3,929 nucleotides of DNA, from assembly GCA_000004985.1 (NCBI GenBank), contig GG739203.1; one strand, given 5' to 3'. This DNA comes from Naegleria gruberi (lineage: Eukaryota). The first letter of the stretch is position 1; each line of letters begins with the position of its first letter. A program made the position numbers and the translations under genes. The notes below the pieces were generated by a model, which worked only from the letters and a program-made list of their open reading frames with translations, was not told the origin of the DNA and ran no database searches. Shown one piece after another: positions 1 through 3,929 of this stretch.

Positions 1-455
1 CTATTTATGAATTTCTTGTTTGAAATTTTGTATGAATGGATTTTGGACTATTTCATTACTGAGGAAATAAAGAAACCTAACGAAAATGTGTAAATAAAAA
101 TTGTAAAGTAATTTCTATTATATTGAAAACTGTAAATTCCGAATATTCAACCATTCGAGACAAACAATCAAAATTGTAATTATTTCAATAACATTTGCAA
201 CTTGAACACTTTTTGAAGTGGTGTTTCTTTTGATGAAACCATTCCCAAAGTAATATCAATTCCAGGAAGAGGAGCACAACTTGTTTCATAGCACACTTTC
301 AAAATTACCATGATTCAAGTTTAGTTTTGGCAAGAGATTCTTTACAAGTAATTCAAAACCCACTTTTGAAGCTGTGCAAAAGTCTTTCGAATTTTTCAAT
401 GAGGTGTTTGGAAGATTGATTAGAGTTAAATAATCATATTTCATAATTTACCCAG

Positions 456-739: not shown

Positions 740-1035
740 TTAAAAGAAATAACATTGAGCAAAATCTGGTTCAACTGGATAAGTGTAAACTGGATTGTAA
801 TTGTAAATCAATGAGGCAAGTTCACTTTGTTCATTTTGGAATTTGTGTTGACTCTTTCTAGCTTCATTGACAAAGAATTGAGAAAAGTACATGTTAGCTT
901 GTAAACTATCAAATGAATGATCGATATCTTCATGACACCATTCAAAGGCAATTTTTTCTGGATGGAATTGACTGGCATAGATTGGATATCTCTTGTTTTC
1001 ATAAAGTGAAATAAATCCCTTTCCATTTCTATCCT
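740..1035 (-). CDS. GGH: Gamma-glutamyl hydrolase (peptidase C26), 3'-terminal coding exon. It is 5'-partial, running into the N gap. The stop codon TAA is at 740..742 and the last sense codon at 743..745.
   Basis: Minus-strand frame with codons starting at 1033 translates to [97 protein letters not shown]. From memory this aligns colinearly with the human GGH C-terminus ([27 protein letters not shown]...[47 protein letters not shown]). The catalytic-His motif (F/W)HPEK is present, with His at 962..964. The frame is open right up to the gap edge. On the same strand, AATAAA lies about 37 nt past the stop. Confidence 0.85.
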
Positions 1036-2609
1036 NNNNNNNNNNNNNNNNNNNNNNNNNNNNNNNNNNNNNNNNNNNNNNNNNNNNNNNNNNNNNNNNN
1101 NNNNNNNNNNNNNNNNNNNNNNNNNNNNNNNNNNNNNNNNNNNNNNNNNNNNNNNNNNNNNNNNNNNNNNNNNNNNNNNNNNNNNNNNNNNNNNNNNNNN
1201 NNNNNNNNNNNNNNNNNNNNNNNNNNNNNNNNNNNNNNNNNNNNNNNNNNNNNNNNNNNNNNNNNNNNNNNNNNNNNNNNNNNNNNNNNNNNNNNNNNNN
1301 NNNNNNNNNNNNNNNNNNNNNNNNNNNNNNNNNNNNNNNNNNNNNNNNNNNNNNNNNNNNNNNNNNNNNNNNNNNNNNNNNNNNNNNNNNNNNNNNNNNN
1401 NNNNNNNNNNNNNNNNNNNNNNNNNNNNNNNNNNNNNNNNNNNNNNNNNNNNNNNNNNNNNNNNNNNNNNNNNNNNNNNNNNNNNNNNNNNNNNNNNNNN
1501 NNNNNNNNNNNNNNNNNNNNNNNNNNNNNNNNNNNNNNNNNNNNNNNNNNNNNNNNNNNNNNNNNNNNNNNNNNNNNNNNNNNNNNNNNNNNNNNNNNNN
1601 NNNNNNNNNNNNNNNNNNNNNNNNNNNNNNNNNNNNNNNNNNNNNNNNNNNNNNNNNNNNNNNNNNNNNNNNNNNNNNNNNNNNNNNNNNNNNNNNNNNN
1701 NNNNNNNNNNNNNNNNNNNNNNNNNNNNNNNNNNNNNNNNNNNNNNNNNNNNNNNNNNNNNNNNNNNNNNNNNNNNNNNNNNNNNNNNNNNNNNNNNNNN
1801 NNNNNNNNNNNNNNNNNNNNNNNNNNNNNNNNNNNNNNNNNNNNNNNNNNNNNNNNNNNNNNNNNNNNNNNNNNNNNNNNNNNNNNNNNNNNNNNNNNNN
1901 NNNNNNNNNNNNNNNNNNNNNNNNNNNNNNNNNNNNNNNNNNNNNNNNNNNNNNNNNNNNNNNNNNNNNNNNNNNNNNNNNNNNNNNNNNNNNNNNNNNN
2001 NNNNNNNNNNNNNNNNNNNNNNNNNNNNNNNNNNNNNNNNNNNNNNNNNNNNNNNNNNNNNNNNNNNNNNNNNNNNNNNNNNNNNNNNNNNNNNNNNNNN
2101 NNNNNNNNNNNNNNNNNNNNNNNNNNNNNNNNNNNNNNNNNNNNNNNNNNNNNNNNNNNNNNNNNNNNNNNNNNNNNNNNNNNNNNNNNNNNNNNNNNNN
2201 NNNNNNNNNNNNNNNNNNNNNNNNNNNNNNNNNNNNNNNNNNNNNNNNNNNNNNNNNNNNNNNNNNNNNNNNNNNNNNNNNNNNNNNNNNNNNNNNNNNN
2301 NNNNNNNNNNNNNNNNNNNNNNNNNNNNNNNNNNNNNNNNNNNNNNNNNNNNNNNNNNNNNNNNNNNNNNNNNNNNNNNNNNNNNNNNNNNNNNNNNNNN
2401 NNNNNNNNNNNNNNNNNNNNNNNNNNNNNNNNNNNNNNNNNNNNNNNNNNNNNNNNNNNNNNNNNNNNNNNNNNNNNNNNNNNNNNNNNNNNNNNNNNNN
2501 NNNNNNNNNNNNNNNNNNNNNNNNNNNNNNNNNNNNNNNNNNNNNNNNNNNNNNNNNNNNNNNNNNNNNNNNNNNNNNNNNNNNNNNNNNNNNNNNNNNN
2601 NNNNNNNNN
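1036..2609. other. Assembly or scaffold gap: a run of 1574 N.
   Basis: The bases are literal n characters. The gap interrupts the GGH gene body, so the middle exons are missing. Confidence 0.97.
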
Positions 2610-2704
2610 CTTTTGTTATTTTCTCCATCATTTCAACTTTTCGATCTTTCAACTTTCTATATCTTCACATTCACATGTTGTTCTACCTATATCTGAAATA
2701 TTAC

Positions 2705-2776
2705 CTTCCATCTCCAAGTAGTTATCGAGAACGAGCTGTTCTAAAGTGTCGATAGGTTTTTGGCTTGAATTTTTCT
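2705..2776 (-). CDS. Candidate internal coding exon, possibly an N-terminal-region exon of the same GGH gene. The exon ends at a strong GTAATA donor (minus GT = plus 2704..2703). The 5' boundary is uncertain: the putative acceptor ccgcag (plus 2777..2782) is a guess, and the frame stays open upstream to about 2830.
   Basis: Minus-strand translation reads ...(A)EKNSSQKPIDTLEQLVLDNYLEMEG, followed by gtaatatttcag. Similarity to the human GGH N-terminal region (KKPII...ASYVKYLESAG) is weak (KPI, YLE.G). The call is supported mainly by the open frame plus the consensus donor. It is on the same strand as the GGH terminal exon and upstream of it, with the gap in between. Confidence 0.25.
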
Positions 2777-3067
2777 CTGCGGAAATTAATTCCGATTTTT
2801 TAAAAATTTTCAAGTTGTTAAACTACCAAACATTTAATTCTTGAAATTCTTGTAAATTCGAAATATTTAAGATGCACGTTTTGAGATTAAAATTTTAAGC
2901 AAAAAGGAAATTGTAGTGTACTCCCATAGCTTCAAGACACAACAGGCAAACCTGGCAAAAGGTCTAATTACGGATCCGCAATTACTAATTCGATTGCAAA
3001 ATGGATAACATTCCCATTTATTCAAAAAAAATTTACAGAAAAGCAATAAAATTTTTTAATTAACCAA

Positions 3068-3156: not shown

Positions 3157-3929
3157 TTATTTTTCCATAGACAATACTCTCTGAAAACTCAACAAGTTCA
3201 TCATTCTCTCCTTCATTCCTAAATCGATAACTTCCGATCTTGCATGCTTTTCCATGTGCTCAAAATAATGGCATCCATCACATAGCAATTCAAATTCCTT
3301 CAACTTTTCTACTTGTTGCTCTTCAGTCATTGCAAGAATTAACTTGTACTCATTAACATGTTGGGCTACTTCCCTCTCTTCATCATCGATATCTTCTGTT
3401 GCTTGGGCTCTCTTCTTCACACCATCCCTATTCTTGTGATGCACATGAAAGATCTTTCCCAATTCAGAATTGGATTCAAAAGACAGGCCACATTCCTTAC
3501 ATTTTCCTCCCATCAGATTGATCATCTTTTCATGACAATATTGCCAATTAGAACCACCTTCAACATTCCTTGCATGTTCCAAACCATGACAAGGTCTACA
3601 CAATACTTCCAACTTTTCATTCTTCTTGAACCAATCAGCACCAAACTTTTTGAATTCGGGAATGAATTTTGTTGTACTCCTAAATGTCTTTGTAAAGTCA
3701 TCGTCCTTATACATGACATGATGAAGAGTGAATGCATTAACCTCATGTAAATGTTCCATTTCAATACGACATCTATTGCACTTGATTGACAAATCGTCCC
3801 TCTCCAATACTTCACTTAGAAAAGTATGAATGGCAATTTGCTTCCTCTTGGAAATGTAAACAGCACACCTTGGACATGTTCCATCATCCTTAAATTTGAC
3901 ATGACCCAAACAAAAATGGCAATTGACAC
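3157..3929 (-). CDS. Tandem HNH (His-Me finger) nuclease-domain protein, McrA-like motifs. It is 5'-partial, with the frame still open at the window edge, and has no introns across at least 257 codons. Stop TAA is at 3157..3159.
   Basis: The translation contains two complete HNH units. Unit B (about 3574..3780) reads CNRC, 15 aa, LHHVMYKDDD, then NEKLEVLCRPCHGLEH. Unit C (about 3256..3501) reads CKECG, 14 aa, HVHHKNRDG, then LLCDGCHYFEH. Both match the canonical PF01844-type pattern CxxC...HH...N...LCxxCHxxxH, as in E. coli McrA (CENCG...EVHHVIPLSSGG...DNCVALCPNCHRELH). Further Cys pairs sit N-terminal: CPRC at residues 12..15 and NCHFCLGH encoded by 3910..3929. The same frame stays open upstream of the tracked start, which is TTG rather than ATG, so the true N-terminus lies beyond the window. 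An acidic linker (EDIDDEERE...EEQQVEKLKEFE) lies inside unit C between its HH and LCxxCH motifs. AATAAA is found on the minus strand (plus 3068..3073) about 85 nt past the stop. Confidence 0.6.
   Translation of the reverse strand, partial: VNCHFCLGHVKFKDDGTCPRCAVYISKRKQIAIHTFLSEVLERDDLSIKCNRCRIEMEHLHEVNAFTLHHVMYKDDDFTKTFRSTTKFIPEFKKFGADWFKKNEKLEVLCRPCHGLEHARNVEGGSNWQYCHEKMINLMGGKCKECGLSFESNSELGKIFHVHHKNRDGVKKRAQATEDIDDEEREVAQHVNEYKLILAMTEEQQVEKLKEFELLCDGCHYFEHMEKHARSEVIDLGMKERMMNLLSFQRVLSMEK

What the first reader, a model, noticed from the sequence alone, without database searches (positions are those of the whole stretch)
3256..3780. Two HNH units differ: unit B keeps the conserved Asn, unit C replaces it with a long acidic insert
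Unit B (3574..3780) has N97-x5-LCRPCH, matching the McrA DNCVALCPNCH spacing class, together with the HH dyad. It looks catalytically intact. Unit C (3256..3501) has CKECG and HVHHKNRDG that match McrA very closely. However, a 35-aa acidic, helix-like insert (residues about 171..205, plus 3295..3399) lies between HH and LCDGCH, and there is no Asn at the expected position before LC; the nearest is NEYK, 22 aa upstream. This suggests one active nuclease module plus one possibly degenerate or regulatory module, or a unit adapted to bind an acidic-patch partner. Tandem internal duplication with divergence is a notable architecture for a His-Me finger protein.
Basis: partly seen in the sequence, partly recalled or inferred. 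Interest (0 to 1): 0.55.

Follow-up and report, generated by a model that had tools for sequence, protein, structure and literature searches.

The report
Tandem double-HNH nuclease gene of Naegleria
The stretch encodes the end of a Naegleria gruberi protein with two old, tandem copies of an HNH-type DNA-cutting module; both look intact, so this is a divergent member of a nuclease class known from phages and giant viruses, not one live unit plus one dead one.

Summary
The window is a complete 3929-bp Naegleria gruberi contig. The minus-strand ORF 3157..3929 runs off the contig end. It is one of four near-identical N. gruberi copies; the 456-aa paralogue shows the full length.

Both units have CxxC...HH...LCxxCH-x3-H. 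The proposed contrast between the units does not hold:
- Asn in unit B lies 11 residues before the helix His. From memory, the canonical spacing (Pfam HNH consensus; McrA string as quoted in the finding) is 9.
- That Asn varies among homologues (N/E/V/N/V/E/D). Neither unit has Asn at the canonical position.
- Both units carry a helical spacer between HH and LC, 39 residues in B and 51 in C. The net difference is about 12 residues.
- Unit C is the better conserved unit (42% against 32% mean pairwise identity). Its insert is conserved, including an invariant NEY.
- The seven Cys/His positions are invariant across 15 aligned units.

The closest relatives are phage "HNH endonuclease" families. 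The viral-structure search matched amoeba giant-virus HNH proteins over 220-253 aligned columns, consistent with two-unit relatives. Best reading: a single-chain double-HNH endonuclease. Activity is untested.

The parts
3157..3929 (-). 3' part of the coding sequence of a tandem-HNH protein. The stop codon is 3157..3159. The frame is open to the contig end, so the N-terminus lies outside the window.
   Evidence: The window is the whole contig of N. gruberi NAEGRDRAFT_76872. Paralogue P0002 (456 aa) carries about 200 further N-terminal residues.
3865..3921 (-). C3-x2-C6-x11-C18-x2-C21, a four-Cys zinc-knuckle pair. It is not an HNH unit.
   Evidence: Sequence. P0002 has a second pair, CxC-x11-CxxC, just upstream. 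There is a weak hit to zf-FPG_IleRS and zinc-ribbon profiles. The model is of low confidence here, pLDDT 47-55.
3808..3864 (-). Helix (residues 22-40) leading into unit B.
   Evidence: AF2 model, pLDDT 80-97.
3574..3780 (-). HNH unit B (C50..H118). It has a CxxC knuckle, strand 1 ending in H69-H70, helix 85-102, strand 2 at 106-110, and a helix starting C110-x2-C113-H114 with H118.
   Evidence: Pfam HNH on the unit alone gives E 0.012, below threshold. Unit B of orthologue P0006 hits phrog_2255 'HNH endonuclease' at E 8.7e-5.
3619..3621 (-). It is not the canonical HNH Asn.
   Evidence: It lies 11 residues before H114 instead of 9. The column reads N/E/V/N/V/E/D in homologues, whereas the neighbouring E104 is conserved.
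3502..3573 (-). Linker with helix 127-138, carrying the conserved W128 and near-invariant H132 and ending in the G-G-K that precedes unit C's first Cys.
3256..3501 (-). HNH unit C (C143..H224). It has a CxxC knuckle, strand 1 at 160-164 ending in H163-H164, three helices, strand 2 at 212-216, and a helix starting C216-x2-C219-H220 with H224.
3295..3435 (-). Helical spacer of unit C (residues 165-211), sited between strand 1 and strand 2.
   Evidence: Helices 169-178, 182-199 and 202-209. Mean pairwise identity among orthologues is 39% (computed on residues 165-214), about the same as the unit as a whole.
3376..3411 (-). R173..E184, the roughly 12 residues that unit C has in excess of unit B. 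This is the real unit-C-specific insertion.
   Evidence: Gap in all unit B rows of alignment A3 and in the hhalign output.
3346..3354 (-). N192-E193-Y194, invariant in every homologue that covers it.
   Evidence: Residues 192-199 show 73% mean pairwise identity.
3160..3255 (-). C-terminal helices (residues 225-256).
   Evidence: Weakly conserved, 21% identity.

Best explanation
The region encodes the C-terminal two thirds of a nuclear-genome protein of Naegleria gruberi that carries two tandem, zinc-stabilised HNH (His-Me finger) nuclease modules.

Each module has the same order of parts: a lead-in helix; a CxxC knuckle; strand 1 ending in an HH dyad, whose second His is the presumed general base; a helical insertion in the hairpin; strand 2; and a helix that starts with CxxCH and carries a further His four residues on, the presumed metal ligands.

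The two modules come from an old duplication and belong to an Asn-less, long-spacer HNH class that is common in phages and giant viruses. Unit C is not a decayed copy. It is the better conserved of the two, and its extra 12-residue segment and NEY motif are fixed features of the family.

Most likely mechanism (inferred, not shown): both active sites work, and the single chain acts as a built-in pseudo-dimer that cuts both DNA strands. Dimeric HNH enzymes do this with two subunits. The N-terminal C4 knuckles and basic stretches would supply DNA binding and nuclear targeting.

The gene family was probably acquired from a virus and behaves either as a selfish, homing-type nuclease or as a domesticated one.
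For: Shown by sequence and alignment:
- The motifs sit at the stated coordinates.
- Seven invariant columns (C, C, H, H, C, C, H) run across 15 units from the Naegleria family and two phage-like tandem proteins.
- Unit B and unit C profiles align at probability 79-89%, E 2e-6.

Shown by structure prediction:
- The whole-fragment model has pLDDT 78.9 and pTM 0.74, with the same strand-helix-strand-helix pattern in both units.
- Unit C alone has pLDDT 85.7.

Shown by comparison with relatives:
- The family occurs in N. fowleri, N. lovaniensis and environmental contigs with eukaryote-like gene content.
- Unit C is more conserved than unit B, and its insert is conserved.
- Orthologue P0006 hits PHROG 'HNH endonuclease' families at E 1.7e-8 and 8.7e-5.
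- The window protein aligns collinearly over both units with the phage-like tandem protein P0013, pairwise E 9e-10. P0013 hits phrog_2255 at E 3e-50.
- The Foldseek search of viral structures puts HNH proteins of Clandestinovirus, Medusavirus, Barrevirus, Pithovirus and Marseillevirus on top, with 220-253 aligned columns and E down to 4e-6.
- The 20 differences between the window copy and paralogue P0002 avoid every Cys/His ligand of the two HNH units and every Cys of the knuckle pair.

Inferred: cutting of both strands by paired HNH domains is documented for I-PpoI, Hpy99I and T4 endonuclease VII dimers (PMC12141522).
Against: - No activity data exist for any member, nor for the phage or giant-virus relatives.
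- Pfam HNH is below its gathering score for the whole protein (8.6 bits, E 2.9) and for each unit (16.2 and 14.9 bits, against a cut-off of 21.4).
- The canonical structural Asn is absent from both units.
- Model coordinates could not be inspected, so the zinc-site and active-site geometry were not measured.
- Unit B was not modelled and fold-searched on its own.
- The alignment behind the models has only 7-10 sequences.
- In Cap5, some HNH domains of an assembly are inactive and only bind DNA (PMC12141522). Intact motifs therefore do not prove that both units cut.
Confidence: 0.6

Rival explanations
1. One reading: unit B is the only active nuclease, and unit C is a degenerate or regulatory module whose acidic insert binds a partner or mimics DNA.
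For: - Unit C has a longer spacer, with an acidic stretch of 12 acidic and 4 basic residues in 35.
- It has no Asn near strand 2.
- Residues 184-191 have low confidence in the whole-fragment model.
- There is precedent for inactive, DNA-binding HNH domains next to active ones in Cap5 (PMC12141522).
Against: - Unit B lacks the canonical Asn as well, and its N103 is not conserved.
- All presumed catalytic and zinc residues are invariant in unit C.
- Unit C is more conserved than unit B, 42% against 32%.
- Unit C alone folds as an HNH domain.
- The acidity is only partly conserved.
- The N. fowleri gene model keeps only unit C.
Confidence: 0.15
2. The reverse asymmetry: unit C is the main catalytic module, and unit B is an auxiliary, mainly DNA-binding copy.
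For: - Unit C is the better conserved unit.
- P0012 lacks the last His of unit B.
- The N. fowleri model has only unit C.
- The strongest PHROG HNH hit of an orthologue falls on unit C, E 1.7e-8.
Against: - HH, CxxCH and the four Cys of unit B are invariant in all eight unit B sequences.
- P0012 and the N. fowleri protein may be truncated or wrongly predicted gene models.
Confidence: 0.15
3. Neither unit cuts. The protein is a domesticated zinc-finger DNA- or RNA-binding factor that only keeps the HNH scaffold.
For: - Pfam HNH is below threshold.
- There is no canonical Asn.
- The gene sits next to an ordinary cellular gene in the window.
Against: A purely structural role needs only the Cys ligands. 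The invariant HH dyad and the two helix His residues in both units are what a catalytic site requires.
Confidence: 0.08
4. Cross-unit pairing: the HH of one unit works with the CxxCH of the other, so the 'units' are not independent domains.
For: None was found.
Against: - Unit C alone gives a confident model (pLDDT 85.7) whose only two strands of 3 or more residues end at HH and at the first Cys of CxxCH. This model matches HNH domains.
- The same secondary-structure pattern repeats in unit B.
Confidence: 0.02

Closest known systems
Phage 'HNH endonuclease' families with a long HH-to-LC spacer (PHROG 2255, 3106, 8048), as in the tandem proteins P0011 and P0013
   Same: - The same unit plan: helix, G-x-C-x2-C-G, HH, a helical spacer of about 35-40 residues, LCxxCH-x3-H.
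- No Asn before strand 2. These proteins have Lys at position -5 from the Cys, as does unit B (K105).
- Two units in tandem.
- Sequence matches: E 6.6e-5 and 1.6e-4 in the 1.8-billion-protein library, pairwise E 9e-10, and orthologue P0006 against phrog_8048 at E 1.7e-8.
   Different: - The window protein itself reaches only E 0.002-0.04 against the PHROG profiles.
- Unit C has an extra, conserved segment of about 12-17 residues (DGxKKRxxA...) and an invariant NEY that the phage units lack.
- The host is a eukaryote, with an ordinary cellular gene next to the gene in the window.
- Whether the tandem was inherited or arose independently is unresolved. B, C and the phage units are about equally distant from each other, at 18-22% identity.
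HNH endonucleases of amoeba-infecting giant viruses (Clandestinovirus A0A8F8PKE7 and A0A8F8KPY6; Medusavirus A0A3T1CX78 and A0A7S8BDF0; Barrevirus; Pithovirus; Marseillevirus)
   Same: These are the best structural matches to the whole fragment: Foldseek E 4e-6 to 9e-4, probability 0.99-1.00, 220-325 alignment columns (220-253 in the top six). This implies that both units are matched.
   Different: - Sequence identity is only 12-18%, and TM scores are about 0.35-0.42.
- Their sequences could not be fetched, so motifs and unit count were not checked directly.
- No close relative was found in the viral contig collection.
Zinc-finger HNH domains with solved structures (Cap5, ZRANB3, GVE2 phage HNH, EcoKMcrA, Cas9 HNH)
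   Same: - In my recollection of these structures, two CxxC knuckles flank the HNH core in McrA, ZRANB3, GVE2 HNH and Cap5, as in the window's units. The metal-binding His sits at the start of the helix.
   Different: - There is no detectable sequence relation to any solved chain.
- The hairpin carries a large helical insertion.
- The canonical Asn is missing.
- McrA's N-terminal 5mC-reading domain, Cap5's SAVED domain and the other partner domains are absent.
Dimeric His-Me finger nucleases (T4 endonuclease VII, Hpy99I, I-PpoI)
   Different: There the two sites come from two subunits. Here they would come from one chain. This is a functional analogy only and was not tested.

Membership tests
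HNH / His-Me finger endonuclease superfamily | Beta-beta-alpha-metal fold: a hairpin followed by a helix | tested here: met
   [not shown]
HNH / His-Me finger endonuclease superfamily | General-base His at the end of strand 1 (the HH or DH dyad) | tested here: met
   H69-H70 and H163-H164 end the predicted strands. They are invariant in 15 aligned units.
HNH / His-Me finger endonuclease superfamily | Metal-ligand His/Asn at the start of the helix, plus a second His four residues later | tested here: met
   H114/H118 and H220/H224. The first His is invariant. The second is conserved in all unit C sequences and in seven of eight unit B sequences.
HNH / His-Me finger endonuclease superfamily | Structural Asn in strand 2, nine residues before the helix His (the middle N of H-N-H) | tested here: not met
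   Unit B has K105 there (K/T/K/E/K/P/P in the family). Unit C has E211 (E/E/S/E/L). N103 is two residues out of register and variable. The phage relatives have Lys at this position. The superfamily is known, from general knowledge, to tolerate replacements at this position.
HNH / His-Me finger endonuclease superfamily | Pfam PF01844 match at or above the gathering score (21.4 bits) | tested here: not met
   Whole fragment 8.6 bits, E 2.9. Unit B 16.2 bits and unit C 14.9 bits. The matches are split into two halves by the spacer.
HNH / His-Me finger endonuclease superfamily | Metal-dependent nuclease activity | not testable with these tools
   This needs biochemistry.
Zinc-finger HNH subclass (McrA, ZRANB3, GVE2 and Cap5 type) | Four Cys from two CxxC knuckles binding one structural zinc ion | tested here: inconclusive
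   All four Cys are present and invariant in both units.
EcoKMcrA-type modification-dependent restriction enzymes | Significant sequence similarity to the McrA HNH domain, plus the N-terminal 5mC-reading domain | tested here: not met
   [not shown]
Phage long-spacer HNH endonucleases (PHROG 2255, 3106, 8048) | Significant profile match | tested here: inconclusive
   The window protein reaches only E 0.0024-0.04. Orthologue P0006 reaches E 1.7e-8 (phrog_8048) and 8.7e-5 (phrog_2255). The link also holds through P0011 and P0013.
Phage long-spacer HNH endonucleases (PHROG 2255, 3106, 8048) | Long helical spacer between HH and LCxxCH, and a Lys in place of the Asn | tested here: met
   The spacers are 39 residues in B and 51 in C, against about 35-40 in P0011 and P0013. 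K105 in unit B matches the phage Lys. Unit C has K210-E211 instead.

The most novel reading that the evidence does not exclude
Heterolobosean amoebae keep a cellular family of single-chain double-HNH nucleases that was captured from giant viruses or phages. Its two active sites form a built-in pseudo-dimer that makes double-strand breaks. The family-specific basic and acidic helical insert with the invariant NEY motif in unit C acts as a regulatory or partner-binding element, for example an auto-inhibitory DNA mimic or a docking site. That would make the protein a controlled nuclease used in conflict with giant viruses or as a self-propagating homing element.
Probability: 0.2. Interest if true: 0.5.

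Novelty: new member of a known kind. Interest (0 to 1): 0.3.

Why it matters
It corrects a tempting motif-based call. The presence or absence of the middle Asn does not separate a live HNH unit from a dead one in this class.

It also gives a fold and a family to a group of Naegleria 'predicted proteins' that carry no Pfam domain, and it links them to HNH endonucleases of phages and, by structure, of amoeba giant viruses. If the two-site, single-chain mechanism holds, the family would be a compact natural double-strand cutter in a eukaryote and a marker of gene flow between amoebae and their viruses.

As it stands, this is an uncharacterised but recognisable member of a very large nuclease superfamily.

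Tried and rejected
- **Sequence search of the PDB.** The fragment, the unit C profile, P0011 and P0013 gave no HNH hit. Only chance C2H2 zinc-finger or coiled-coil matches appeared.
- **tblastn against phage genomes.** No match.
- **NCBIfam.** Nothing relevant.
- **Word-indexed protein searches.** With the family alignment A1 and the unit alignment A3 they returned only proteins already known. The exhaustive HMMER search supplied the homologues.
- **Exact look-up of the paralogue's contig.** Failed, so I could not compare the flanks of the four N. gruberi copies or look for mobile-element ends.
- **The search for related loci.** The single protein found no viral relative.
- **AlphaFold-database fold search.** The library was unavailable.
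- **Repeats and RNA.** DNA-level repeat search shows no trace of the B/C duplication and no terminal repeats. Rfam found nothing.
- **Literature.** No paper describing tandem HNH units in one chain or this Naegleria family turned up.
- **Alternative parse rejected.** C18xxC21 + H34 + C50xxC53 as a compact 'unit A' does not hold. H34 and H9 are not conserved in homologues. C3/C6/C18/C21 form a CxxC-x11-CxxC knuckle pair that is repeated upstream in P0002.
- **Ancestry of the tandem rejected as unproven.** I could not show that it is inherited from the phage-like tandem proteins. Cross-unit scores are as good as same-order scores.

Full report
**Source and gene**

The window is a complete 3929-bp contig of Naegleria gruberi. 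An exact look-up shows that the 200-aa public model EFC35473 / NAEGRDRAFT_76872 (P0003) sits on a contig of exactly this length, and its sequence is the window's. G+C is about 30-39%. Bases 1036..2609 are a scaffold gap of 1574 N.

The finding lies in a minus-strand frame that is open from the window end (3929) to a stop codon at 3157..3159. I number the 256 visible residues from V1 (3927..3925).

N. gruberi has four copies, 92-99% identical to the window copy. Two are on scaffolds of 613 kb and 401 kb, and two are on small contigs. One of them, P0002 (456 aa), shows what lies beyond the window:
- a low-complexity, basic N-terminus;
- a helical region;
- two four-Cys knuckle pairs.

The three 200-aa public models start at an internal Met (M57) inside unit B.

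**The observation**

- Unit B (3574..3780): C50-x2-C53, H69-H70, L109-C110-x2-C113-H114, H118.
- Unit C (3256..3501): C143-x2-C146, H163-H164, L215-C216-x2-C219-H220, H224.
- The segment 3295..3399 is 35 residues with 12 acidic and 4 basic.

The implied 'unit A' at the window edge is not an HNH unit. C3/C6/C18/C21 form a CxxC-x11-CxxC knuckle pair, P0002 has a second such pair upstream, and the His residues nearby (H9, H34) are not conserved.

**Homologues**

- The word-indexed protein search found only the N. gruberi cluster.
- The exhaustive HMMER search of 1.84 billion representatives found 13 proteins.
- Eight of them belong to the same family: P0005, P0006 and P0007 with both units (E 1e-40 to 3e-25), an N. 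fowleri protein that UniRef names 'HNH domain-containing protein', an N. lovaniensis protein, and fragments from metagenomes.
- The contigs of P0005 and P0009 carry eukaryote-like neighbours, with leucine-rich-repeat and WD40/RLD hits.
- The remaining hits are prokaryotic or phage-like HNH proteins. Two of them (P0011, P0013) are themselves tandem two-unit proteins.

**Are the units HNH modules?**

Direct profile evidence for the window protein is weak.
- Pfam HNH gives 8.6 bits for the fragment and 16.2 and 14.9 bits for the separate units, against a cut-off of 21.4. The match is split by the spacer.
- Several PHROG 'HNH endonuclease' families score E 0.002-0.04.

Three further lines make the assignment firm.
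1. Orthologue P0006 hits phrog_8048 with its unit C (E 1.7e-8), and phrog_2255 and phrog_1271 with its unit B (E about 1e-4). P0011 and P0013 hit phrog_2255 at E 1e-36 and 3e-50.

Unit C can form the fold, and the elements pair within units.

**The claimed asymmetry**

From memory, in the Pfam HNH consensus (...N-l-q-l-l-C-x-x-C-H) the Asn lies nine residues before the helix His.

- In unit B that position is K105. N103 is 11 residues before H114.
- Across homologues the N103 column reads N/E/V/N/V/E/D. The canonical position reads K/T/K/E/K/P/P.
- In unit C the canonical position is E211 (E/E/S/E/L).
- The phage tandem proteins have Lys there.

So neither unit keeps the Asn, and the whole class is Asn-less.

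Both units also have a long spacer between HH and the first Cys: 39 residues in B and 51 in C. Profile-profile and multiple alignments place the difference in about 12 residues, R173..E184.

Mean pairwise identity among the window protein, P0005, P0006 and P0007:

| Region | Mean pairwise identity |
|---|---|
| Unit B | 32% |
| Unit C | 42% |
| Unit C spacer | 39% |
| N192-A199 | 73% |

N192-E193-Y194 is invariant. D168-G169, R173 and A176 are also fixed, whereas the acidic run itself varies.

Across 15 aligned units the only invariant columns are the four Cys, the HH dyad and the helix His. The 20 differences between the window copy and P0002 avoid every Cys/His ligand of the two HNH units and every Cys of the knuckle pair. 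Unit C is therefore not a decaying copy.

**Origin of the tandem**

- Units B and C are 18% identical on average, about as far from each other as each is from the phage units (21-22%).
- There is no DNA-level repeat. The duplication is old.
- BLASTP aligns the window protein collinearly over both units of P0013 (E 9e-10), but cross-unit matches are nearly as good. Inheritance of the tandem against repeated duplication is open.
- P0013 lies on an 88-kb contig whose neighbouring genes hit RNA-ligase (PF09414, PF21189) and PolyA_pol (PF01743) families. I read this as phage-like.
- A Foldseek search of predicted viral structures puts proteins of amoeba giant viruses on top: Clandestinovirus, Barrevirus, Medusavirus, Solivirus, Pithovirus and Marseillevirus. 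E runs from 4e-6 to 3e-3, with 220-253 aligned columns in the top six. This implies that both units are matched.
- A recent survey reports HNH endonucleases as common mobile-element genes in the genomic islands of giant viruses (PMC13620141).
- No close relative was found in the viral contig collection.

**Mechanism**

Shown: two modules, each with a complete set of presumed zinc, general-base and metal-ligand residues, each predicted to adopt the HNH fold, and both under constraint.

Inferred: both cut, and the chain works as a pseudo-dimer that cleaves both strands. This is by analogy with I-PpoI, Hpy99I and T4 endonuclease VII, where two HNH domains from two subunits do so (PMC12141522). 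The same paper shows that in Cap5 some HNH domains of an assembly only bind DNA, so an active/inactive split cannot be excluded from sequence. If there is a split, conservation points to unit C rather than unit B as the indispensable unit.

The role of the conserved insert and of NEY is unknown.

**Comparison and novelty**

The protein works like, and most probably is, a divergent member of the HNH / His-Me finger superfamily. More precisely, it belongs to the long-spacer, Asn-less, zinc-knuckle class that PHROGs already label 'HNH endonuclease'.
- It is not a McrA-type enzyme. There is no sequence relation and no 5mC-reading domain.
- I found no paper on tandem HNH units in a single chain or on this Naegleria family.
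- What is particular here is the eukaryotic host, the multi-copy state in N. gruberi, and the conserved unit-C insertion.

I rate it a new member of a known kind, with moderate-to-low interest (0.3).

Noticed in passing
window 740..1035 (-): This frame encodes '...YENKRYPIYASQFHPEKIAFEW...', the C-terminal part of a class-I glutamine-amidotransferase-like protein. From memory it resembles gamma-glutamyl hydrolase. The Pfam GATase hit is weak (E 0.0042). Its upstream part disappears into the N gap. It is an ordinary cellular neighbour on the same strand as the HNH gene.
   Followed up: partly
window 1036..2609: A run of 1574 N (scaffold gap). The 614-aa 'ORF' at 808..2652 listed is an artefact of translating the N run.
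   Followed up: yes
window 3757..3759 (M57) and upstream to 3929: The public 200-aa gene models (P0001, P0003, P0004) start at the internal Met57, inside unit B and downstream of its first CxxC. The frame stays open to the contig end, and paralogue P0002 extends about 200 residues further. The models are therefore N-terminally truncated.
   Followed up: yes
window 3532..3546 (W128..H132): The linker helix before unit C carries a conserved Trp and a near-invariant His (W-x3-H), followed by LLGG-x-C. The phage tandem proteins have a similar lead-in helix before each unit. Its role is unknown.
   Followed up: no
L001 3489..3869 (+), just upstream of the P0005 gene at 3925..4860: This ORF resembles the N-terminal region of P0002 ('KAYIPY...' against 'RAYLAYKF...'). 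That suggests an intron or frame break, and that P0005 as called is also N-terminally truncated.
   Followed up: no
window 2649..2813 (-): A 54-aa ORF (MKIFKKSELISAEKNSS...) lies between the HNH gene and the gap. It has no family match. It may be non-coding or part of the gapped neighbouring gene.
   Followed up: partly
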